NCBI RefSeq assembly: GCF_003334765.1
Contig: NZ_QOWT01000029.1
Strand: one strand, 5' to 3'
Source of the DNA: Escherichia coli
GTDB lineage: Bacteria > Pseudomonadota > Gammaproteobacteria > Enterobacterales > Enterobacteriaceae
DNA length: 51,807 nucleotides
Below are positions 4,976 through 45,385 of this stretch, piece by piece. Position 1 is the first letter of the stretch; each line of letters starts with the position of its first letter. The notes under the pieces are model-generated. The model did not search any database, was not told where the DNA came from, and saw only the letters and a program-made list of their open reading frames with translations. The position numbers were made by a program, and so were the translations under genes.

Positions 4976-5185
4976 ATTGTTACCATTTTTATCTATTACA
5001 CGAGCAATTAGTTCGTCACGGTAAATAACATATTGATTAAGAACAAAATCTCAATTCTTTTATTTCCGTCAAGCCCTAAAACATACTCTACTAAGAAAAA
5101 AACACTGAATGCTAAAACAGCAAAAAATGCTATTATCCAATTACCTGATGTCAGGTGCTCGTTGTTGAAAGGATGAGGATATTTT

Positions 5186-17342: not shown

Positions 17343-17373
17343 CTCACTGATTTAAATATCCAGGGAAGGAAAT

Positions 17374-17637
17374 ATGATCGATCTGGAAAACCAGGAACGG
17401 GAGATTATCAATTTAATGTTCAGCCAGGGTATATCCTGGCTAACCGCCGTGCGTATCAGGCATAAACTATCACTTGCTGAAGTAAGTAAAATGTTAGGTA
17501 TCTCCATTAATTCTCTAAAACAGATCGAAAAGACGGAACGGCTTAGTTCAAACATCAAAAGCAAAATGGCAGGAATTTATGGTTGTCCACCAGAGTTGCT
17601 GATATGCCCTTCCTGGATGACGGCTGAACATAAATGA
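17374..17637 (+). CDS. Small XRE-type HTH protein; possibly the N-terminal remnant of HipA-like kinase YjjJ/HipH
   Basis: 87-aa ORF with Shine-Dalgarno GGGAAGGA 4 nt before the ATG, 32 bp after lplA stop; helix-turn-helix signature LSLAEVSKMLGISINSLKQIE; no kinase domain follows. Confidence 0.6.
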   Translation: MIDLENQEREIINLMFSQGISWLTAVRIRHKLSLAEVSKMLGISINSLKQIEKTERLSSNIKSKMAGIYGCPPELLICPSWMTAEHK

Positions 17638-17735
17638 ATAGATTCGTGAATAGATACTTGAATGGATTTTATTTTCTATCCATATGAAAAATAATAGTAA
17701 ATCTATAAATCAGTTGCTATTGATGAATAGATGCT

Positions 17736-17764
17736 AAAAAGCCGGAGCAGTCTCCCGCTCCGGC
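17736..17764 (-). terminator. Rho-independent terminator of the deo operon
   Basis: 8-bp stem GCCGGAGC/GCTCCGGC followed on the minus strand by a T-run (AAAAA on plus strand), 35 bp past deoD stop. Confidence 0.7.
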
Positions 17765-17797
17765 TTCACAAGGCAATCGCCTTTCAGCGAAACACAA

Positions 17798-18517
17798 TTA
17801 CTCTTTATCGCCCAACAGAACGGATTCCAGTGCGATTTTGATCATGTCGTTGAAGGTGGTCTGACGCTCAGCGGCAGTGGTCTGCTCGTGAGTGCGGATG
17901 TGGTCAGACACGGTGCAGATGGTCAGGGCTTTCGCGCCAAATTCTGCAGCGACGCCGTAGATACCAGCTGCTTCCATTTCCACGCCGAGGATGCCGTATT
18001 TTTCCATCACGTCGAACATTTCGCCGTCCGGAGAGTAGAACAGGTCAGCGGAGAACAGGTTACCAACGCGAGCATCAACGCCCAGTGCTTTAGCCGCGTC
18101 TACCGCGTTACGCACCATGTCAAAGTCAGCGATAGCGGCAAAGTCATGGTCTTTAAAACGGATACGGTTAACTTTGGAATCGGTGCAGGCACCCATACCG
18201 ATAACGACGTCGCGCAGTTTTACGTGTGGCAGAACAGCGCCACAGGAGCCTACGCGGATAATTTTCTTCACGCCGAAATCGGTGATCAGTTCTTTGGTGT
18301 AGATGGAGCAGGACGGGATACCCATACCGTGACCCATTACGGAAATTTTGCGGCCTTTGTAAGTACCGGTGAAGCCCAGCATACCGCGAACGTTGTTCAC
18401 TTCACGGGCATCTTCAAGGAAAGTTTCAGCAATATACTTCGCACGCAGCGGGTCGCCTGGCATCAAAACTACGTCAGCGAAATCGCCCATTTCTGCATTA
18501 ATGTGTGGGGTAGCCAT
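17798..18517 (-). CDS. deoD: Purine nucleoside phosphorylase DeoD
   Basis: ORF track 258 aa; start moved to [12 protein letters not shown] to give 239 aa. Confidence 0.95.
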
Positions 18518-18573
18518 TGTTTTATCCTTTTTGTGACATAACAAAGGCGGAGTCAACGCTCCGCCCAAATCCA

Positions 18574-19818
<1,245 letters not shown>

Positions 19819-31347: not shown

Positions 31348-32379
31348 ATGTCTGCATTTACCCCGGCAAGTGAAGTCTTGCTGCGTCACAGTGATGATTT
31401 CGAACAAAGCCGTATTCTGTTTGCCGGAGACTTACAGGATGACCTGCCCGCGCGTTTAGATACCGCGGCCAGCCGTGCTCATACCCAGCAATTCCACCAT
31501 TGGCAGGTGTTAAGCCGCCAGATGGGGGATAACGCCCGTTTTAGTCTGGTCGCAACGGCAGATGACGTCGCAGATTGCGATACGCTGATCTACTACTGGC
31601 CGAAGAATAAACCGGAAGCCCAGTTCCAGTTGATGAATTTACTTTCTCTGCTGCCGGTGGGCACGGATATTTTTGTCGTTGGCGAGAACCGCAGCGGCGT
31701 GCGCAGCGCCGAACAGATGCTGGCAGATTATGCGCCGTTGAATAAAGTCGACAGCGCCCGTCGCTGCGGCCTCTATTTTGGTCGTCTGGAAAAACAGCCG
31801 GAATTTGATGCGGATAAATTCTGGGGCGAATATAACGTGGATGGCCTGACGGTCAAAACGCTGCCGGGCGTGTTTAGCCGCGACGGTCTGGATGTCGGTA
31901 GCCAGTTACTGCTCTCGACGTTAACTCCGCACACGAAAGGTAAAGTGCTGGATGTCGGCTGTGGCGCGGGCGTGCTTTCTGTTGCCTTTGCGCGCCATTC
32001 GCCGAAAATTCGTCTCACTCTGTGCGATGTCTCTGCGCCAGCGGTAGAAGCCAGCCGCGCAACACTTGCGGCCAACGGTGTTGAAGGTGAAGTCTTTGCC
32101 AGTAACGTCTTTTCCGAGGTGAAAGGTCGTTTTGATATGATCATCTCCAACCCGCCGTTCCACGATGGGATGCAAACCAGCCTCGATGCGGCGCAAACGC
32201 TGATTCGCGGCGCGGTGCGTCATCTTAATAGCGGCGGCGAGCTGCGAATTGTAGCGAACGCCTTCCTGCCTTATCCGGACGTGCTGGATGAGACATTTGG
32301 CTTCCACGAAGTGATCGCGCAAACCGGGCGCTTCAAGGTGTATCGCGCCATTATGACCCGCCAGGCGAAGAAAGGTTAA
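31348..32379 (+). CDS. rsmC: 16S rRNA (guanine1207-N2)-methyltransferase RsmC
   Basis: 343-aa ORF with SAM-binding motif [12 protein letters not shown] and NPPFH catalytic motif. Confidence 0.93.
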
Positions 32380-32509
32380 GTATCTGATATCTGTCGCCGC
32401 ATACCGTGTCGGATGCGGCGTACACGCCTTCTCTGACCGACAAACGAATTATCCACAATCCGCTGATGGACATTTTTCCAGCAATTACACCTCCGGCGAT
32501 AATTAACTA

Positions 32510-32537
32510 TTGACGAAAAGCTGAAAACCACTAGAAT
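32510..32537 (+). promoter_or_regulatory. Sigma-70 promoter of the tRNA-Leu gene
   Basis: -35 TTGACG, 16-bp spacer, -10 TAGAAT, about 40 bp upstream of the mature tRNA 5' end. Confidence 0.7.
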
Positions 32538-32578
32538 GCGCCTCCGTGGTAGCAATTCTTTTTAAGAATTGATGGTAT

Positions 32579-32665
32579 GCGAAGGTGGCGGAATTGGTAG
32601 ACGCGCTAGCTTCAGGTGTTAGTGTCCTTACGGACGTGGGGGTTCAAGTCCCCCCCCTCGCACCA
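32579..32665 (+). tRNA. leuV: tRNA-Leu (anticodon CAG)
   Basis: 87-nt sequence GCGAAGGTGGCGGAATTGGTAGACGCG...GGTTCAAGTCCCCCCCCTCGCACCA with anticodon loop CTTCAGGTG and encoded CCA; only one copy present. Confidence 0.95.
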
Positions 32666-32703
32666 ATTATCTTTACTTCCTTTCTTGTTTCTTCCCTGAT
32701 TTT

Positions 32704-32940
32704 TCATCCCTGATTCAAATTCATTATCATCAGCATGATGCCAGCAATAAGCGCCAGGCACGATGGCAGCAAAACGTAATGCCGCAACTGTTTGTGATAC
32801 AGCATCACCGGCGTCAATATTAATCCCATCAGAATGACAATCCGCCACTGATCCGGCGATAAATCCGCATACATCAGCCCTGCAATCAGCAATCCCGGCA
32901 GCAACACTCCCCAGCCACTGCCCAGCGTACGTTGCAACAT
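32704..32940 (-). CDS. yjjZ: Small membrane protein YjjZ (DUF1435)
   Basis: ORF track 115 aa; start moved to MLQRTLGSGW to give 78 aa; Fur box immediately upstream. Confidence 0.75.
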   Translation of the reverse strand: MLQRTLGSGWGVLLPGLLIAGLMYADLSPDQWRIVILMGLILTPVMLYHKQLRHYVLLPSCLALIAGIMLMIMNLNQG

Positions 32941-32958
32941 GGTTTCATCTCTTTCATT

Positions 32959-32995
32959 GATAATGATAACTAATATCATATGATAATTTTTATCA
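32959..32995. promoter_or_regulatory. Fur boxes in the yjjZ/fhuF divergent control region
   Basis: GATAATGATAACTAATATC closely matches the Fur consensus GATAATGATAATCATTATC; adjacent TGATAATTTTTATCA palindrome. Confidence 0.7.
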
Positions 32996-33047
32996 TTTGC
33001 AAGCCAGAGAAATCCCTTGCTATCGGGTAAACCTATCGCTAGGATTA

Positions 33048-33068
33048 GCAATCATTATCATTTAGATT
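33048..33068. promoter_or_regulatory. Fur-box-like site next to the fhuF start
   Basis: GCAATCATTATCATTTAGATT (AATCATTATC core) 13 bp upstream of the fhuF ATG. Confidence 0.55.
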
Positions 33069-33080
33069 ACTATCCCGATT

Positions 33081-33869
33081 ATGGCCTATCGTTCCGCACC
33101 GCTCTATGAAGATGTTATCTGGCGAACGCATCTCCAGCCGCAGGATGCTGGGCTTGCACAAGCCATACGGGCGACGATCGCCGAACATCGTGAACATTTG
33201 CTCGAGTTTATCCGCCTGGATGAACCCGCTCCGCTTAACGCCATGACGCTGGCGCAATGGTCATCAACGAATGCGCTAAGTTCTCTACTGGCGGTCTATT
33301 CCGATCATATCTATCGCAACCAACCAACGATGATCCGCGAGAACAAACCGCTGATCTCACTATGGGCGCAATGGTATATCGGCCTGATGGTGCCACCATT
33401 AATGTTGGCGCTGCTGACGCAGGAAAAAGCATTAGATGTGTCGCCGGAACATTTCCACGTTGAGTTTCACGAAACCGGACGCGCCGCCTGTTTCTGGGTC
33501 GATGTGTGTGAAGATAAAAACGCAACACTACATTCGCCGCAGCAGCGAATGGAAACGTTAATCAGTCAGGCGCTGGTTCCGGTAGTGCAGGCATTAGAAG
33601 CAACGGGAGAGATCAACGGCAAACTTATCTGGAGCAATACCGGTTATTTGATCAACTGGTATCTGACTGAGATGAAACAGCTGCTTGGCGAGGCGACGGT
33701 TGAATCGCTGCGCCATGCCCTCTTTTTTGAGAAAATGCTCACGAACGGTGAAGATAATCCACTCTGGCGTACCGTGGTACTGCGCGACGGCCTGCTGGTG
33801 CGCCGCACTTGCTGCCAGCGTTATCGCTTACCGGATGTGCAGCAATGTGGCGATTGTACGCTGAAATGA
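33081..33869 (+). CDS. fhuF: Ferric-siderophore reductase FhuF (2Fe-2S)
   Basis: 262-aa ORF with C-terminal C-C-x10-C-x2-C cluster motif (RRTCCQRYRLPDVQQCGDC). Confidence 0.93.
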   Translation: MAYRSAPLYEDVIWRTHLQPQDAGLAQAIRATIAEHREHLLEFIRLDEPAPLNAMTLAQWSSTNALSSLLAVYSDHIYRNQPTMIRENKPLISLWAQWYIGLMVPPLMLALLTQEKALDVSPEHFHVEFHETGRAACFWVDVCEDKNATLHSPQQRMETLISQALVPVVQALEATGEINGKLIWSNTGYLINWYLTEMKQLLGEATVESLRHALFFEKMLTNGEDNPLWRTVVLRDGLLVRRTCCQRYRLPDVQQCGDCTLK

Positions 33870-33906
33870 AAGCACTGCCGGGGAAGTAAACCCGGCATCA
33901 TGCGGA

Positions 33907-34584
33907 TTAATAGGGATGCAACACATTACTTGCTTCGCAATGCCGCATACATAACAGAATATCTGCGGCCTCCAACAACCCTGCATCAGAACTGACGCCC
34001 AGTTTCGACATCACATTAAATTTATGTGCACGGATCGTTTTGATATTGCGTTTAAGCTGCTCGGCAATTTGTGTCATTGAGTAGCCACGCGACATAAAGC
34101 GCAATATTTCTCTCTCCGTCGGGCTTAGCGTTCGGCTTTGATTAATGTACCACTGATTGTTCAGTCGGTCGGTCGCCTGACGTACACCATTTAATGACAA
34201 AAAGAGTTCCTGATGAAAAATCTCCAGCGTTGACGCTTTACTTAATACACCGTCCAACGGTGATGGCGACAATGAACCAATCAGCCGAGCTTCAATATCA
34301 TCATCCGCAATAACTAAACGCCGGGTACGCGGAAACTTAATCGCCAGTTCAGTCAGGCAAGATAATCCCTCTCTGCGCTCACTTCTCATGGCAGAAAAAG
34401 AAAAAATGACCGCCGCAAACGAGATCCGCGACATGGCATCCTGAAATGACTCCTGACTGGTATAGGTATGGAGCTTATAAGGGTTACCCGCAAACTTTCT
34501 GAATAAACTCTCAATACCGATACTACTCATGACGCATTTTTCTATGAGTGCGACATTTCTCTTCTTAATTCGGCTGTGTTCCAT
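33907..34584 (-). CDS. bglJ: LuxR-family transcriptional activator BglJ
   Basis: 225-aa ORF with C-terminal LuxR HTH; 5' end overlaps yjjQ. Confidence 0.9.
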
Positions 34585-35267
34585 TCTGCGGCATCTCCAT
34601 AAACAGAAGGCAAGTTAAGTTCTCTTGCACCCTGCGCGCTATTTATCCATGCATACATTTCAGCGTTGCTGTGAATTGCCAGTCGACGCATCGCACTGTT
34701 TTTTTGGGCGCTGATAGTTTTATTACTTTTCTTAAGCAATGAAGCTATCTGGTTGATGCCCCATCCTTTACCTAATAGCCGCAGTACCTTGCGCTCTGAA
34801 AGAGTGAGAATGACGGAGCGATAGCTAAAATCATGAGTTTCAGTCATTGCCGGAGAGGTCAGCATGGCGCTGATACGCTCTGCGTGCGTATTACCGGAAC
34901 GTACGGTCTTGACCAGATTCTCAATGGGTTCAACATCAGACAATAACGTCGCCGTAGGGCACATGAGCAATTCTACTGCCTGGGAATACCAGGATCGTGA
35001 CACCATGAAAACCCAGTGAATTTCCCGATATTGTGAGATTAAAGAATAATAATGTTCACAAACAGAACGTGGATCTTCACTTTCACCGGCTAAATCAGCA
35101 ATGACTAATCCGGAACGACGTAATTGTAATAAGGTAAGGTCCTCCGCAGAGGCGCTGGATATTATTTCATATTCAGGGAAGTGAGTCCTCATGACCTCTT
35201 TTAACCCTGCTTGCATAACAGGTATTTTACTGATAACAATTCCATTTTTGCAGCATCCTGGCAACAT
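34542..35267 (-). CDS. yjjQ: LuxR-family transcriptional regulator YjjQ
   Basis: 241-aa ORF with C-terminal LuxR HTH; AT-rich upstream region. Confidence 0.9.
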
Positions 35268-35885
35268 ATTTCCTCCACATCCACTGTCTAAAAATTATGA
35301 TGGTTTATTCAGGATATTCATTCCTTAAATGTTTCCAGCAAATTAATAGATTAAGCGAATAAATTATCCTTAGCATTCACTTTCATATCAGCATACTCCT
35401 GCTGCACAACAACTCCACTGCATGTGTCAGAAGGTTAGCATCAAATGATAACCTAGTGAAATAGCCTGGAGACATTTAAAATATCTACATTAAGTTGTTA
35501 GAAATACTTAATGAAAAACAGAATTCTCATTCATTTAATTTATAATTAACTGATATCCCTTCCAGTAGAATGCAAAATCACACAATCAATATTTATTCAA
35601 TAAAATCTGATAGTTTTAACTTGTAAAAATTAAAAAACGCGCCCAGTTATCTTTTATCCTGATTCGTAAAGGCTAAACAATAAATTCATTATAGTGATAA
35701 TATTCATGTGATAATTTATTTGCGACGAGAGATAATTCGCTTTTTATCACCGAGCTTCTCCCGATAACCAGGATTAATCAGCGCAATTTTGATCTTAACC
35801 TACCGCAAAACAACCGTGCTTCATGATACAAATGGATTCTCATTATCTGAACAATACGCAGCACGTCTATGACAAAGGGCGAGTT

Positions 35886-36656
35886 ATGCAAACTGAGCAA
35901 CAGCGAGCCGTAACACGGCTTTGTATCCAGTGTGGATTATTTCTTTTGCAACATGGTGCGGAAAGCGCGTTGGTTGATGAGCTTTCCTCACGACTGGGTC
36001 GGGCGCTGGGAATGGACAGCGTCGAAAGTTCTATCTCTTCGAACGCCATAGTGCTGACAACTATTAAAGATGGGCAATGCCTGACATCGACACGAAAAAA
36101 TCAAGATCGCGGCATTAATATGCATGTGGTGACTGAAGTCCAGCACATTGTGATTCTGGCGGAGCATCATCTGCTGGATTACAAAGGTGTAGAGAAACGA
36201 TTTAGCCAAATTCAGCCATTACGTTACCCGAGATGGCTGGTAGCCTTAATGGTCGGCCTTTCTTGCGCCTGTTTCTGTAAACTCAATAAAGGTGGCTGGG
36301 ATGGTGCCGTCATCACCTTCTTTGCCAGTACGGTCGCGATGTATATCCGCCAGCTGCTGGCACAACGTCATCTTCATCCACAGATCAACTTTTGCCTCAC
36401 CGCTTTCGCCGCCACCACCATTTCCGGTTTGCTTTTGCAACTTCCCACTTTCAGCAATACACCCACCATCGCGATGGCCGCCAGCGTTCTGCTGCTGGTG
36501 CCGGGTTTTCCGTTGATTAATGCCGTCGCCGATATGTTTAAAGGCCACATCAATACCGGACTGGCACGCTGGGCGATCGCCAGTCTGCTGACACTGGCTA
36601 CCTGCGTCGGCGTGGTGATGGCACTGACGATTTGGGGGCTACGCGGATGGGTGTGA
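35886..36656 (+). CDS. yjjP: Inner-membrane protein YjjP (succinate exporter subunit)
   Basis: ORF track 277 aa from 35823; start moved to [12 protein letters not shown] to give 256 aa. Confidence 0.85.
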
Positions 36657-37120
36657 TCGAATTTCTGTTAGCGTTGGCGCAGGATATGATCCTCGCCGCC
36701 ATTCCTGCGGTCGGCTTTGCGATGGTGTTCAACGTTCCCGTGCGGGCGTTACGCTGGTGTGCGCTGCTTGGCTCGATAGGTCATGGTTCCCGAATGATCT
36801 TAATGACCAGCGGGCTGAATATTGAGTGGTCAACTTTTATGGCTTCTATGCTGGTCGGCACCATTGGTATTCAATGGTCGCGCTGGTATCTGGCGCATCC
36901 GAAAGTGTTTACCGTGGCGGCTGTTATTCCTATGTTCCCTGGCATATCGGCTTATACCGCAATGATTTCGGCGGTAAAAATCAGCCAGCTAGGTTACAGC
37001 GAACCGTTGATGATTACCCTGTTAACCAACTTTCTTACAGCTTCATCAATTGTTGGTGCGTTATCCATCGGTCTTTCCATTCCTGGATTATGGTTGTACC
37101 GCAAGCGCCCTCGCGTATAA
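36647..37120 (+). CDS. yjjB: Inner-membrane protein YjjB (succinate exporter subunit)
   Basis: ORF track 162 aa; start moved to [10 protein letters not shown] to give 157 aa; hydrophobic; overlaps yjjP stop. Confidence 0.85.
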
Positions 37121-37226
37121 AATTGCCTCGCTTAAGCACACGGATGAGAGACAGCCTCCTCTCCTCCGTGTGTTACTATAAAAGTTATCTCCCTTCTCGT
37201 TCATCGTTCCATATTTGAGAAACAGT

Positions 37227-37766
37227 ATGTCTTCCAGAGTTTTGACCCCGGACGTCGTTGGTATTGACGCCCTGGTACACGATCACCAAACCGTTCTGGC
37301 AAAAGCTGAAGGCGGTGTGGTTGCCGTATTTGCTAACAATGCCCCGGCGTTTTATGCCGTCACGCCTGCACGCCTGGCTGAACTGCTGGCGCTGGAAGAA
37401 AAGCTGGCGCGTCCGGGAAGCGATGTCGCTCTGGACGATCAACTCTATCAGGAACCGCAAGCTGCTCCCGTAGCTGTACCCATGGGGAAATTCGCCATGT
37501 ATCCGGACTGGCAACCCGATGCCGACTTTATCCGCCTGGCGGCGCTATGGGGCGTGGCGCTAAGAGAGCCGGTGACCACCGAAGAACTGGCCTCATTCAT
37601 TGCCTACTGGCAGGCGGAAGGTAAAGTCTTTCACCATGTGCAGTGGCAACAAAAACTGGCGCGCAGCCTGCAAATCGGTCGTGCCAGCAACGGCGGACTG
37701 CCGAAACGAGATGTGAATACGGTCAGTGAACCTGACAGCCAAATTCCACCAGGATTCAGAGGGTAA
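37227..37766 (+). CDS. dnaT: Primosomal protein DnaT
   Basis: ORF track 183 aa; start moved to [12 protein letters not shown] to give 179 aa. Confidence 0.92.
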
Positions 37767-41733: not shown

Positions 41734-42756
41734 TCAGAAAGTAATTACACCCTTAATCAACTCACGATTGTTAATCACATCACGCTCGTAGGTTTCTGCC
41801 AGCGTGGCGAACGGGTAGCGATGGGTTAACATCATGTCGGCAGTGATTTTCCCTTCCGCCATCAGTCGACCGACTTTAGCGAAATCTTCCGGCGTGGCGT
41901 TGCGGCTACCCATCATCGTCGTTTCTTTTTTATGGAATTCTGGATCGGAGAACTGCAACTCACCTTTAAACAGACCGACAAATACCACCGTGCCGCCGTG
42001 ACGAATCAGATTCACGGTGTTATTCATCGCATGTTGATTACCTGTCGCGTCGATCACTTTCTGCGCCAGAGAACCACCAAACTGCGCCCGCAGCTGCGCG
42101 TCAAAATCTTCGGCTGATGGGTCCAGCACGGGCAACTCCAGACGCGTTGCCACATGTTCACGGCGCGCCGGACTGGTATCCGCCACCACCACCTGTGCGC
42201 CATCGGCTTTAGCGATTGCCGCCGCGCCCAGACCGATTGGCCCCGCCCCGACCACCAGCACCTGCTCGCCGGGAGCAATGGCTGCGCGACGTACCGCATG
42301 AGCGCTAATAGCGAAAGGTTCAATCAATGCTGCCGCCTGCGGGTCAATACCATCTGCGGGCAAAATGTTCGCCACCGGCACGCTCAAATACTCACTAAAA
42401 CCGCCATCCTGATGCACGCCAATGACTGAAATTTTTTCACAGCAATTGGTACGCCCGCTTTTACACGCCGGGCATTGCTGACAGGCAACATAAGGGATCA
42501 CCGCTACTTGCTGTCCATTTTTAAGATTTGCAATATTTTTACCCAGCCCAACAATCTCCCCACATATTTCATGGCCTAAAACCCGTGGATAACTAAAAAA
42601 TGGTTGATTTCCACCCCAGGCATGAATATCGGTACCGCAAATCCCGACAGACTTAATTTTTATTAATGCTTCATTGTCACCCGGAATAGGTATCTCGCGT
42701 TGTTTCCAGACTAATTCTTTCGGCTGCTGGCAAATTAAAACATTCATCGTAGACAT
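41734..42756 (-). CDS. lgoD: Zn-dependent alcohol-dehydrogenase-family L-galactonate oxidoreductase LgoD (YjjN)
   Basis: ORF track 345 aa; start moved to MSTMNVLICQQ (about 340 aa); GHE...GxGxxG MDR-family motifs (GHEICGEI, VVGAGPIGLG). Confidence 0.88.
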   Translation of the reverse strand: MSTMNVLICQQPKELVWKQREIPIPGDNEALIKIKSVGICGTDIHAWGGNQPFFSYPRVLGHEICGEIVGLGKNIANLKNGQQVAVIPYVACQQCPACKSGRTNCCEKISVIGVHQDGGFSEYLSVPVANILPADGIDPQAAALIEPFAISAHAVRRAAIAPGEQVLVVGAGPIGLGAAAIAKADGAQVVVADTSPARREHVATRLELPVLDPSAEDFDAQLRAQFGGSLAQKVIDATGNQHAMNNTVNLIRHGGTVVFVGLFKGELQFSDPEFHKKETTMMGSRNATPEDFAKVGRLMAEGKITADMMLTHRYPFATLAETYERDVINNRELIKGVITF

Positions 42757-42894
42757 GATTCGGCTCTCCATTTTTTGTTGCCTTAGATATCAATGAAAAT
42801 GAAAAATGGCAGCGGAACGGAAAATCTGTTTTGTGAAAACACACGCATAAAAATGTTTTAAATCGGGTTTTAATGGACTCACAAGGAGGAAAAT

Positions 42895-43809
42895 ATGAGT
42901 CGTTCACAAAATTTACGCCACAATGTGATTAACCAGGTCATTGATGATATGGCGCGGGGTCATATCCCTTCCCCACTTCCATCGCAAAGTGCGCTGGCGG
43001 AAATGTACAACATCAGCCGCACTACAGTGCGTCATATTCTCAGCCACTTACGCGAATGCGGCGTCTTAACGCAGGTTGGAAACGACTATGTGATTGCGCG
43101 TAAACCTGACCATGATGACGGTTTCGCCTGTACTACCGCTTCAATGAGTGAACAAAACAAAGTGTTTGAGCAGGCTTTTTTCACGATGATAAACCAGCGC
43201 CAGTTACGCCCTGGGGAAACTTTTTCTGAACTGCAACTGGCTCGGGCCGCGGGTGTCAGCCCGGTTGTAGTAAGAGAATATCTTTTAAAATTCGGCCGTT
43301 ATAATCTTATTCAAAGCGAAAAGCGCGGCCAGTGGAGCATGAAGCAATTCGATCAATCCTACGCCGAGCAGCTGTTTGAACTACGCGAAATGCTCGAAAC
43401 ACATTCACTTCAGCACTTTCTCAACCTGCCTGATCATGATCCCCGCTGGCTGCAGGCGAAAACCATGCTCGAACGTCATCGGCTACTGCGTGACAACATC
43501 GGCAATAGCTTTCGCATGTTCTCGCAACTTGACAGAGATTTTCACTCCTTACTGCTTTCAGCTGCCGACAATATCTTTTTTGATCAATCTCTTGAGATCA
43601 TCTCAGTCATCTTTCATTTTCACTATCAATGGGACGAAAGCGATCTTAAACAGCGCAATATCATTGCCGTCGATGAGCATATGACCATTCTCAGCGCTCT
43701 GATTTGCCGCAGTGACCTTGATGCCACCCTTGCGCTCCGTAACCATTTGAATTCAGCTAAACAATCAATGATTCGATCCATTAATGAGAACACGCGTTAT
43801 GCTCATTAA
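42895..43809 (+). CDS. lgoR: GntR-family regulator LgoR (YjjM)
   Basis: 304-aa ORF with GntR-type HTH and FadR-like C-terminal domain, divergent from lgoD. Confidence 0.88.
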   Translation: MSRSQNLRHNVINQVIDDMARGHIPSPLPSQSALAEMYNISRTTVRHILSHLRECGVLTQVGNDYVIARKPDHDDGFACTTASMSEQNKVFEQAFFTMINQRQLRPGETFSELQLARAAGVSPVVVREYLLKFGRYNLIQSEKRGQWSMKQFDQSYAEQLFELREMLETHSLQHFLNLPDHDPRWLQAKTMLERHRLLRDNIGNSFRMFSQLDRDFHSLLLSAADNIFFDQSLEIISVIFHFHYQWDESDLKQRNIIAVDEHMTILSALICRSDLDATLALRNHLNSAKQSMIRSINENTRYAH

Positions 43810-44023
43810 GTACGGATTAAAAACAGCAAACTATTAGCGGGTGCACGGTTTTATCAAAAGATAAATACCGGGAAATTCCCGCTTACCTATGCTCACAATC
43901 AGTCGACTAAAAATGTTTTTGTGAGCGGTAGTAAAGTCCTAAAACTTTAACCTGCCGTTAATGTCAACCTTGCGTAATGCACAATTACGTAAACAATTAA
44001 AATTATAAATACAGGAGTCCGGC

Positions 44024-45385
44024 GTGGAAAAAGAAAATATCACCCTCGATCCGCGTTCTTCATTTACTCCATCTTCGTCGGCAGATATTCCCGTGCCACC
44101 AGATGGATTAGTTCAACGCAGTACCCGAATTAAACGCATTCAAACCACCGCCATGTTGTTATTATTTTTTGCGGCGGTAATCAATTATCTCGACCGCAGT
44201 TCGCTGTCGGTAGCAAATTTAACGATTCGTGAAGAATTGGGATTAAGTGCCACCGAAATCGGCGCTTTGCTCTCCGTGTTTTCACTCGCTTACGGGATTG
44301 CGCAACTTCCTTGCGGCCCACTATTGGATCGTAAAGGCCCACGCCTGATGCTGGGACTGGGGATGTTCTTCTGGTCACTGTTCCAGGCCATGTCTGGCAT
44401 GGTGCACAGCTTTACGCAGTTCGTGTTGGTGCGTATCGGTATGGGGATTGGTGAAGCGCCGATGAACCCATGTGGCGTAAAAGTCATTAACGACTGGTTC
44501 AACATCAAAGAGCGCGGACGCCCGATGGGCTTCTTCAACGCAGCTTCTACCATTGGCGTTGCCGTAAGCCCACCGATTCTGGCGGCGATGATGCTGGTGA
44601 TGGGCTGGCGTGGGATGTTTATTACCATTGGTGTGCTGGGGATTTTTCTCGCCATTGGCTGGTATATGCTCTATCGCAACCGCGAGCACGTAGAACTGAC
44701 TGCCGTTGAACAAGCTTATCTCAATGCAGGTAGCGTCAATGCCCGCCGAGATCCGCTCAGTTTTGCCGAATGGCGCAGCCTGTTCCGTAACCGCACAATG
44801 TGGGGAATGATGCTCGGATTCAGTGGCATCAACTACACTGCGTGGCTGTATCTGGCCTGGCTTCCTGGTTACCTGCAAACAGCCTATAACCTGGATTTAA
44901 AAAGCACAGGGTTGATGGCGGCTATCCCTTTCCTGTTTGGGGCTGCCGGGATGCTGGTCAACGGTTACGTTACTGACTGGCTGGTCAAAGGGGGAATGGC
45001 TCCGATTAAAAGCCGTAAGATCTGCATTATTGCCGGGATGTTCTGTTCTGCCGCCTTTACGCTGGTCGTACCGCAAGCGACAACATCCATGACGGCGGTT
45101 CTGCTGATTGGCATGGCACTGTTCTGTATTCACTTTGCCGGAACATCCTGCTGGGGCTTGATCCACGTCGCAGTTGCTTCTCGCATGACGGCGTCGGTGG
45201 GCAGTATCCAGAACTTTGCCAGCTTCATCTGCGCCTCTTTTGCGCCGATCATTACTGGTTTTATTGTTGATACCACCCACTCATTCCGTCTGGCACTAAT
45301 CATCTGCGGTTGCGTCACCGCAGCGGGAGCACTGGCGTACATCTTCCTGGTTCGTCAGCCGATCAACGACCCGCGTAAAGATTAA
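44024..45385 (+). CDS. lgoT: MFS transporter LgoT (YjjL), L-galactonate uptake
   Basis: 453-aa ORF, 12-TM major facilitator profile. Confidence 0.88.
   Translation: MEKENITLDPRSSFTPSSSADIPVPPDGLVQRSTRIKRIQTTAMLLLFFAAVINYLDRSSLSVANLTIREELGLSATEIGALLSVFSLAYGIAQLPCGPLLDRKGPRLMLGLGMFFWSLFQAMSGMVHSFTQFVLVRIGMGIGEAPMNPCGVKVINDWFNIKERGRPMGFFNAASTIGVAVSPPILAAMMLVMGWRGMFITIGVLGIFLAIGWYMLYRNREHVELTAVEQAYLNAGSVNARRDPLSFAEWRSLFRNRTMWGMMLGFSGINYTAWLYLAWLPGYLQTAYNLDLKSTGLMAAIPFLFGAAGMLVNGYVTDWLVKGGMAPIKSRKICIIAGMFCSAAFTLVVPQATTSMTAVLLIGMALFCIHFAGTSCWGLIHVAVASRMTASVGSIQNFASFICASFAPIITGFIVDTTHSFRLALIICGCVTAAGALAYIFLVRQPINDPRKD

What the first reader, a model, noticed from the sequence alone, without database searches (positions are those of the whole stretch)
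33907..35822. Low-GC yjjQ-bglJ operon with a 555-bp AT-rich upstream region typical of H-NS-silenced DNA
The 35268-35822 interval is strikingly AT-rich with long A/T tracts, and the two overlapping LuxR-type regulator genes have visibly lower GC than the flanking core genes. This is the sequence signature of xenogeneically silenced DNA. From the literature, H-NS represses and LeuO activates this locus.
Basis: partly seen in the sequence, partly recalled or inferred. Interest (0 to 1): 0.3.

Follow-up and report, generated by a model that had tools for sequence, protein, structure and literature searches.

The report
Known H-NS-silenced yjjQ-bglJ regulator operon
This is the well-studied E. coli yjjQ-bglJ regulator operon with its AT-rich, H-NS-silenced and LeuO-activated control region, so the finding is correct but ordinary; the one correction is that the DNA is an ancient resident of the enterobacterial chromosome, not recently imported.

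Summary
bglJ (33907-34584, -) and yjjQ (34542-35267, -) overlap by 43 nt. They have the lowest GC (0.450, 0.445) and GC3 of 46 long ORFs in a window averaging 0.520. The interval 35268-35822 has GC 0.317, and no equal-length stretch elsewhere in the window is as low.

Two refinements apply. The AT-rich block really spans about 35028-35856, running about 240 nt into yjjQ. The conserved yjjP start is 35886, so the spacer is 618 bp, not 555.

Identity is certain. The locus is present in 5425 of 5426 complete E. coli genomes. BglJ passes the NCBIfam equivalog cut-off, and both proteins carry a GerE/LuxR helix-turn-helix. Papers held in the library state that H-NS represses and LeuO activates the operon, and flag an H-NS SELEX site in this spacer.

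The word "xenogeneic" needs correcting. Orthologues sit between fhuF and yjjP in every informative locus from about 20 Enterobacteriaceae genera. They are always AT-richer than their flanks, although synonymous sites are saturated and the spacer is unalignable between genera. The low GC is therefore an old, maintained property.

Verdict: already known, low interest.

The parts
33907..34584 (-). bglJ, a LuxR/GerE-type transcription factor of 225 aa. According to the literature it is the partner of RcsB.
   Evidence: ORF. NCBIfam equivalog NF008548 'BglJ' scores 383 bits against a cut-off of 176. Pfam GerE at residues 152-203. Annotated bglJ in RefSeq E. coli genomes. GC 0.450, GC3 0.473.
34542..35267 (-). 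yjjQ, a LuxR/GerE-type transcription factor of 241 aa and the first gene of the operon.
   Evidence: ORF. Pfam GerE at residues 153-206. Weak full-length resemblance to NarL-type response regulators. Annotated yjjQ. GC 0.445 and GC3 0.421, the lowest of 46 ORFs.
34542..34584 (-). 43-nt overlap between the end of yjjQ and the start of bglJ. This points to one transcription unit and probably to translational coupling (inferred).
   Evidence: Coordinates. The first 18 residues of BglJ are conserved in the Klebsiella oxytoca and Salmonella arizonae ORFs, which also overlap yjjQ. The upstream start and the overlap are therefore real.
35268..35885 (.). Divergent yjjQ/yjjP regulatory spacer.
   Evidence: GC 0.317 (555 bp) or 0.325 (618 bp); no equal-length stretch elsewhere in the window is as low. 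The TpA frequency of 0.097 is the highest of 22 spacers. PMC3946193 flags it as holding an H-NS SELEX site. No Rfam family matches here.
35028..35856 (.). Maximum-likelihood AT-rich block of the window, with its core at 35473-35722 (GC 0.236). It includes the first ~240 nt of the yjjQ coding region.
   Evidence: Change-point scan: GC 0.337, log-likelihood ratio 57.
35363..35391 (-). Candidate yjjQ promoter, CTGATA-17-GATAAT.
   Evidence: Found by the consensus scan. The hexamers are identical to those PMC3946193 lists for yjjQ-bglJ. The -10 region (GGATAA) is conserved in Escherichia, Salmonella and Citrobacter in the upstream alignment. No transcription start was mapped here.
35511..35539 (+). 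Candidate yjjP promoter, ATGAAA-17-TTTAAT.
   Evidence: It is the only exact match in the window, against 0.02 expected. The hexamers are identical to those PMC3946193 lists for yjjP. That listing is a prediction. Other promoter-like sites lie at 35674-35701 and 35708-35736.
35272..35276 (-). Shine-Dalgarno GGAGG of yjjQ.
   Evidence: Read from the sequence. Together with the ATG, it is the only spacer element conserved across all 27 aligned genera and species.
35886..36656 (+). yjjP, the divergent membrane-protein gene (ThrE-family exporter annotation). The literature reports it as co-repressed by H-NS.
   Evidence: RefSeq annotation. Invariant columns begin at M22 of the long ORF, which is window 35886. 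The title of Stratmann et al. 2008 names yjjP as regulated by H-NS and LeuO.
33874..33899 (-). Hairpin in the 37-bp gap between the convergent genes fhuF and bglJ. It is a possible terminator of the operon.
   Evidence: RNA fold of -17.8 kcal/mol, z -2.65. The trailing U-run is weak, and the terminator scan did not call it.

Best explanation
This is the chromosomal yjjQ-bglJ operon of Escherichia coli together with its divergent yjjP/yjjQ control region.

Shown here: two overlapping genes encode LuxR/GerE-type DNA-binding proteins. They are the AT-richest genes in the window. An AT-rich block of about 830 bp covers the spacer and the 5' end of yjjQ.

Taken from the literature: H-NS binds this AT-rich DNA and keeps both divergent promoters off under laboratory conditions. 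The LysR-type regulator LeuO binds in the same spacer and counteracts H-NS, turning the operon on. BglJ then pairs with RcsB to activate bgl, leuO and other loci. YjjQ represses flhDC and other loci.

Inferred: H-NS nucleates in the GC 0.24 core and spreads or bridges over both promoters and into the yjjQ coding region. The 43-nt gene overlap couples bglJ translation to that of yjjQ.

It is ancestral to the sampled Enterobacteriaceae, and its AT-richness has been maintained in every lineage while the sequence itself has turned over.
For: Identity:
- 95-100% nucleotide identity to annotated yjjQ, bglJ, yjjP and fhuF in 5425 of 5426 complete E. coli genomes.
- Gene order matches RefSeq.
- BglJ is above the NCBIfam equivalog cut-off.
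- Both proteins have a GerE helix-turn-helix, and their closest solved relatives are RcsB DNA-binding domains.

Composition.

Regulation (literature):
[quoted passage not shown] - H-NS SELEX site in the yjjP/yjjQ spacer (PMC3946193). The two promoter predictions of that paper are found exactly in the window.

Ancestry:
- A YjjP-anchored scan of one genome per species gave 80 loci. yjjQ and bglJ orthologues lie between fhuF and yjjP, divergent from yjjP, in all 72 loci with complete flanks.
- They are AT-richer than the flanks in all of them: yjjQ by 9.3 points, bglJ by 7.7, and the 400 bp upstream of yjjQ by 20.
- GC3 is lower in 70 of 70 loci, by 17.5 and 13 points.
- Four-fold sites are at or near random identity between genera.
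- The spacer is unalignable beyond the Shine-Dalgarno sequence and ATG.
Against: No binding or expression data exist for this particular strain. Its spacer differs from K-12 by 3.6%.

The primary paper with the mapped promoters and the H-NS and LeuO footprints (Stratmann et al. 2008, PMC2223560) is not held. Site positions within the spacer therefore cannot be placed on the window. My recollection of its abstract (H-NS binding at the centre of a 555-bp spacer, LeuO sites at the centre and over the yjjP promoter) is unverified.

The H-NS 10-mer TCGATAAATT has no match with one mismatch or fewer in the spacer.

The 72 loci are phylogenetically related, so they are not 72 independent observations. 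The survey did not reach beyond Enterobacteriaceae, so a very old acquisition before the family radiated is not excluded.
Confidence: 0.9

Rival explanations
1. The locus is genuinely xenogeneic. On this reading it is a recently acquired low-GC island that has not yet drifted to host composition and is silenced by H-NS for that reason.
For: Low GC and GC3, rare-codon enrichment and a sharp AT-rich block are the classic signature. The encoded proteins evolve much faster than their neighbours: YjjQ is 47-74% and BglJ 35-69% identical across genera, against 83-92% for YjjP.
Against: The locus is present in 5425 of 5426 E. coli genomes. It sits in the same fhuF-yjjP slot in all 72 informative loci from about 20 genera. 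No tRNA is adjacent to the operon, and no integrase gene or IS is annotated or seen as an ORF in the window's copy. Synonymous sites are saturated between genera yet remain AT-rich, so the composition is not left over from a recent import.
Confidence: 0.04
2. The low GC is a passive by-product. On this reading a rarely expressed operon escapes selection on codon usage and GC content and drifts towards the AT-biased mutational equilibrium. H-NS binding is then a consequence of the AT-richness, not something selected for.
For: The deficit is largest at third codon positions. The proteins evolve fast. The spacer sequence is not conserved between genera. The literature says no laboratory condition expresses the operon.
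Against: GC1 is also lower in every lineage, and GC2 in all but one locus for bglJ, which points to AT-rich amino-acid usage rather than synonymous drift alone. Other poorly expressed genes of unknown function in the window do not fall this low. The spacer stays 20 points below its flanks in every lineage. These data cannot separate selection from mutation bias.
Confidence: 0.3
3. The AT-rich interval is just an ordinary divergent promoter region. All E. coli spacers are AT-rich, and nothing special happens here.
For: Two other divergent spacers in the window have GC 0.314 and 0.333.
Against: Those two are 210 and 123 bp long. This block is about 830 bp, extends into coding DNA and is joined to two low-GC genes. 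Direct literature evidence exists for H-NS repression and an H-NS SELEX site.
Confidence: 0.03

Closest known systems
E. coli K-12 yjjP / yjjQ-bglJ locus (b4364-b4366; Stratmann, Madhusudan and Schnetz 2008, J Bacteriol 190:926)
   Same: Same genes, order, overlap and divergent AT-rich spacer. It is the same locus in another strain.
   Different: The window's spacer is 96.4% identical to K-12. No regulatory site has been verified in this strain.
bgl operon of E. coli, the classical H-NS-silenced 'cryptic' locus
   Same: AT-rich DNA silenced by H-NS and relieved by LeuO and BglJ-RcsB. IS insertions are reported in the regulatory region of both: at bgl they activate the operon; here the tested clone showed two-fold higher yjjP expression (PMC2646131; PMC5094792). 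The AT-rich block extends downstream of the promoter in both.
   Different: According to PMC2646131, bgl is patchily distributed and eroding among E. coli phylogroups and was probably acquired horizontally. yjjQ-bglJ is universal in E. coli and syntenic across the family.
leuO locus, an H-NS/StpA-repressed regulator gene
   Same: A regulator gene kept off by H-NS. It forms a reciprocal positive loop with this operon: LeuO activates yjjQ-bglJ, and BglJ-RcsB activates leuO (PMC5025477).
   Different: LeuO is a LysR-type tetramer, not a LuxR-type protein. PMC5025477 found the loop not relevant under laboratory conditions.
RcsA and other auxiliary LuxR-type partners of RcsB
   Same: Small proteins with a GerE/LuxR helix-turn-helix that act with RcsB. 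BglJ's closest solved relatives are RcsB DNA-binding domains, and it weakly matches the RcsA model.
   Different: BglJ-RcsB acts independently of RcsB phosphorylation (PMC5025477). YjjQ and BglJ share only the helix-turn-helix, at 40% identity over 53 residues.
True xenogeneic islands silenced by H-NS (for example Salmonella pathogenicity islands)
   Same: Low GC, rare codons, H-NS repression and dedicated counter-silencers.
   Different: Those islands are lineage-specific insertions. This locus is ancestral and syntenic.

Membership tests
yjjQ-bglJ operon (orthology with the E. coli K-12 locus) | BglJ protein scores above the curated equivalog threshold | tested here: met
   NCBIfam NF008548 scores 383 bits against a cut-off of 176.
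yjjQ-bglJ operon (orthology with the E. coli K-12 locus) | Gene order fhuF / bglJ-yjjQ / yjjP-yjjB-dnaT, with yjjQ divergent from yjjP | tested here: met
   ORF map against RefSeq annotation; 95-100% DNA identity in 5425 of 5426 genomes.
LuxR/FixJ/NarL (GerE helix-turn-helix) transcription factors | C-terminal GerE/LuxR helix-turn-helix domain | tested here: met
   Pfam PF00196: YjjQ residues 153-206 (E 1e-7) and BglJ residues 152-203 (E 2e-12).
Two-component response regulators of the NarL type | Recognisable N-terminal receiver domain with phospho-acceptor residues | tested here: inconclusive
   Neither protein has a Pfam Response_reg hit. YjjQ aligns weakly over its full length to NarL models and structure, far below cut-offs (27 bits against 250; PDB 1a04, E 0.007). 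Catalytic residues were not examined.
H-NS-silenced loci | An extended tract much richer in AT than the genome | tested here: met
   35028-35856 has GC 0.337 against 0.520, and the core has GC 0.236. It is unmatched elsewhere in the window.
H-NS-silenced loci | H-NS occupancy and derepression in hns mutants | not testable with these tools
   Literature only: H-NS SELEX site in the spacer (PMC3946193); operon described as H-NS repressed and expressed in hns stpA strains (PMC3950696; PMC5025477).
Xenogeneic (horizontally acquired) DNA | Patchy, lineage-specific distribution or an insertion that breaks synteny | tested here: not met
   Universal in E. coli. Syntenic in all 72 informative loci of about 20 Enterobacteriaceae genera.
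LeuO regulon | LeuO binding in the promoter region and LeuO-dependent activation | not testable with these tools
   Literature only. No dependable LeuO motif was available to scan with.

The most novel reading that the evidence does not exclude
The AT-richness of this locus is an actively maintained trait of an ancestral regulator pair, not a relic of import. Throughout the history of the Enterobacteriaceae, selection (or an H-NS-linked mutational regime) would have kept the spacer and both genes AT-rich enough to stay under H-NS control. Meanwhile the spacer sequence and synonymous sites turned over completely and the proteins diverged fast. 'Xenogeneic' silencing would then serve here as a conserved switch on a core developmental or virulence regulator.
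Probability: 0.45. Interest if true: 0.3.

Novelty: already known. Interest (0 to 1): 0.1.

Why it matters
The locus itself adds nothing new.

The modest added value is a caution for genome scans. A low-GC, rare-codon, H-NS-type signature does not by itself show foreign origin. Here it marks a family-wide syntenic operon whose AT bias has persisted through saturation of synonymous sites.

That persistence makes the locus a clean test case for a specific question: is AT-richness of H-NS targets maintained by selection for silencing, or by mutation bias in silent chromatin?

Tried and rejected
- The primary paper (PMC2223560) and two follow-ups (PMC4507341, PMC3008536) are not held. Published promoter, H-NS and LeuO site maps could therefore not be transferred to window coordinates.
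- The scan for the H-NS high-affinity 10-mer TCGATAAATT with up to 2 mismatches gave 65 hits in the window against about 50 expected. Four are in the spacer, none with one mismatch or fewer. This is uninformative, because the enrichment follows from AT content.
- The Rfam scan of 32300-37300 found only the tRNA and a sub-threshold REP-like hit. There is no RNA family in the spacer.
- The multiple alignment of 420 nt upstream of yjjQ from 27 taxa showed no conserved block across genera except the Shine-Dalgarno sequence and ATG. A -10-like GGATAA is conserved only in Escherichia, Salmonella and Citrobacter.
- My first ORF caller accepted ATG starts only and made radA, opgB and others look truncated. 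Rechecking showed intact ORFs with TTG starts. The pseudogene idea is withdrawn.
- One script failed because L002 was not yet on disk. I used window-internal ORFs instead.
- A search for STM4547 found only one paper (PMC2837388). Its genome-wide SsrB interaction table lists an SsrB site in the spacer next to Salmonella yjjQ. It gives no H-NS data for the Salmonella orthologue.

Full report
**1. Observation**

The ORF list gives bglJ at 33907-34584 (-, 225 aa) and yjjQ at 34542-35267 (-, 241 aa), overlapping by 43 nt. A divergent ORF starts at 35823.

GC content is as follows:

| Region | GC |
|---|---|
| Whole window | 0.520 |
| bglJ | 0.450 |
| yjjQ | 0.445 |
| 35268-35822 | 0.317 |

The lowest 555-bp stretch of the whole window is 35191-35745 (0.306). 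The next lowest elsewhere is 0.387.

Among 46 long ORFs, yjjQ and bglJ rank lowest and second lowest for GC (z -3.3, -3.1) and GC3 (z -3.9, -2.8), and occupy the two lowest ranks for GC1. GC2 is unremarkable. Their synonymous-codon distance from the pooled window genes is the largest in absolute terms (0.50-0.52). The other strong outliers are highly biased genes with almost no rare codons, whereas these two have the highest AGA/AGG/ATA/CTA share, at 4.1% and 3.6%.

Outside the locus, no equal-length stretch matches the spacer, and only 0.9% match the operon's coding DNA.

Three refinements follow.
- A change-point scan puts the AT-rich block at 35028-35856 (GC 0.337, log-likelihood ratio 57), with a core at 35473-35722 (GC 0.236). 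It runs about 240 nt into yjjQ.
- RefSeq starts yjjP at window 35886. In an alignment of six genera the invariant columns start exactly at that methionine, and the 21 upstream codons are not conserved. The spacer is therefore 618 bp, and 555 bp is the distance to the longest-ORF ATG.
- Two short divergent spacers in the window are just as AT-rich (GC 0.314 over 210 bp; 0.333 over 123 bp). The distinguishing features are the tract length and the low-GC genes.

**2. Identity**

A megablast of 33700-36100 hits 5425 of 5426 complete E. coli genomes, all at 95-100% identity except three records at 80-90%. The annotated features are yjjQ, bglJ, yjjP and fhuF.

The neighbourhood matches RefSeq: holD, rsmC, tRNA-Leu, yjjZ, fhuF / bglJ, yjjQ / yjjP, yjjB, dnaT, dnaC.

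BglJ scores 383 bits on the NCBIfam BglJ equivalog, against a cut-off of 176. Both proteins have a single Pfam domain, the GerE/LuxR helix-turn-helix, at the C-terminus. Their nearest solved relatives are RcsB DNA-binding domains.

YjjQ and BglJ resemble each other only in the helix-turn-helix, at 40% over 53 residues. YjjQ aligns weakly over its full length to NarL-type regulators. Neither has a detectable Pfam receiver domain.

The N-terminal 18 residues of BglJ are conserved in the Klebsiella and Salmonella ORFs, which likewise overlap yjjQ. The overlap is therefore genuine and conserved.

**3. Regulation (from papers, not tested here)**

- PMC5025477 states that LeuO activates the yjjQ-bglJ operon, that the operon is repressed by H-NS, and that H-NS repression dominates and keeps it off under laboratory conditions.
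- PMC3950696 states the same. It adds that LeuO is the only known activator and that BglJ-RcsB activates many loci.
- PMC3946193 lists the spacer as 'yjjP < HNS > yjjQ-bglJ', meaning it contains an H-NS genomic-SELEX site. It predicts promoters ATGAAA-17-TTTAAT for yjjP and CTGATA-17-GATAAT for yjjQ. Both occur exactly in the window, at 35511-35539 (+) and 35391 to 35363 (-).
- PMC5094792 reports IS insertions in the yjjP/yjjQ spacer recurrently detected in different mice during gut colonisation, read there as adaptive. The tested clone expressed yjjP two-fold higher in aerobic conditions.
- In natural isolates the spacer is intact in 5411 of 5424 genomes.

The primary paper (Stratmann et al. 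2008) is not held. From memory of its abstract, H-NS binds the centre of a 555-bp spacer, and LeuO sites lie at the centre and over the yjjP promoter. That is a recollection, not a checked source.

**4. Is it foreign DNA?**

I anchored on the conserved neighbour YjjP and scanned one genome per species. This returned 80 loci from Escherichia, Citrobacter, Salmonella, Enterobacter, Klebsiella, Raoultella, Kluyvera, Kosakonia, Lelliottia, Leclercia, Phytobacter and others.

tblastn shows yjjQ and bglJ orthologues between fhuF and yjjP, divergent from yjjP, in all 72 loci with complete flanks.

Escherichia has the most compact form, with a 43-44 bp gap between fhuF and bglJ. Most other genera carry about 2.2 kb of extra genes there (a PTS EIIC-like and a YbaK-like ORF). 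Klebsiella, Raoultella, Kluyvera and some Citrobacter have ORFs that look like pobA and pobR between yjjQ and yjjP.

In every lineage the pair is AT-richer than its flanks:

| Measure | yjjQ | bglJ | 400 bp upstream of yjjQ | Source |
|---|---|---|---|---|
| GC relative to flanks | -9.3 points | -7.7 points | -20 points | |
| GC3 relative to flanks (lower in 70 of 70 loci) | -17.5 points | -13 points | n/a | |

Identity at four-fold sites between E. coli and other genera is at or near the level expected from composition alone. The upstream region cannot be aligned between genera apart from the Shine-Dalgarno GGAGG and the ATG. A -10-like GGATAA is shared by Escherichia, Salmonella and Citrobacter.

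The proteins diverge much faster than their neighbours: YjjQ 47-74% and BglJ 35-69% identity, against 83-92% for YjjP.

The low GC is therefore not the residue of a recent import. It is an old property that has been kept while the sequence itself changed. Whether selection for H-NS control or AT-biased drift in a silent region keeps it cannot be decided from these data. An acquisition before the family radiated is not excluded either.

**5. Mechanism**

Shown: the anatomy, the composition, the conservation of synteny and the conservation of AT bias.

From the literature: H-NS repression of both divergent promoters; LeuO counter-silencing; BglJ-RcsB as activator; YjjQ as repressor of flhDC (reference list).

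Inferred: nucleation of H-NS in the GC 0.24 core, with spreading or bridging over both promoters and into the 5' coding region of yjjQ; translational coupling through the 43-nt overlap; termination at the hairpin in the 37-bp gap between fhuF and bglJ (-17.8 kcal/mol, z -2.65, weak U-run).

**6. Verdict**

The correction is that the locus is ancestral rather than xenogeneic in origin. It is already known and of low interest. The persistence of AT-richness across the family is a small additional observation that could serve as a test case for how H-NS targets keep their composition.

Noticed in passing
window 32579-32665 (context 32380-32760): There is only one tRNA-Leu(CAG) gene between rsmC and yjjZ. 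The two E. coli genomes fetched for comparison have three tandem copies. The window joins the upstream flank of copy 1 to the downstream flank of copy 3, which suggests a recombinational deletion of about 235 bp or an assembly collapse. Only 431 of 5426 genomes give a colinear match of 80% or more to this junction.
   Followed up: partly
L002 (E. coli WS4437A-1) 18059-18756; hit H12 (NZ_CP180597.1): In the strain whose locus is otherwise 100% identical to the window, an IS1 sits at the 3' end of bglJ and shortens it to 654 nt. In another strain, IS1 is annotated under the match, yjjQ is not, and only 35% of the query is covered. Such disruptions are rare, because 5409 of 5425 genomes have the locus intact.
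   Followed up: partly
L036 841-2984 and 4640-6717; L011 4395-4919: Outside Escherichia the slot holds extra genes. A PTS EIIC-like ORF and a YbaK-like ORF lie between fhuF and bglJ in most genera. ORFs that look like pobR and pobA (judged by eye; no family search run) lie between yjjQ and yjjP in Klebsiella, Raoultella, Kluyvera and some Citrobacter. Escherichia has the minimal arrangement.
   Followed up: partly
window 42400-44100: This is the second lowest-GC coding region of the window, around lgoR (42895-43809, GC 0.469) and the lgoR/lgoD and lgoR/lgoT spacers (GC 0.333 and 0.414). It is the only place whose 700-1400 bp stretches approach the GC of yjjQ-bglJ.
   Followed up: no
window 17343-17797: The gap between lplA and deoD (GC 0.391) holds only an 87-aa helix-turn-helix ORF (17374-17637, +). 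From memory, K-12 has the much longer yjjJ gene there. PMC3946193 marks the deoD/yjjJ spacers as H-NS sites.
   Followed up: partly
window 35823-35885: The longest yjjP ORF starts at 35823 (277 aa). Conservation across genera and RefSeq support 35886 (256 aa). The upstream 21 codons are conserved only within Escherichia.
   Followed up: yes
window 33874-33899: A stable hairpin (-17.8 kcal/mol) fills most of the 37-bp gap between the convergent genes fhuF and bglJ. It may act as a terminator in both directions, but it lacks a clear U-run.
   Followed up: partly
window 4976-5185: The creA/robA divergent spacer is as AT-rich as the yjjQ spacer (GC 0.314) but only 210 bp long. It serves as a reminder that spacer AT-richness alone is not diagnostic of silencing.
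   Followed up: no
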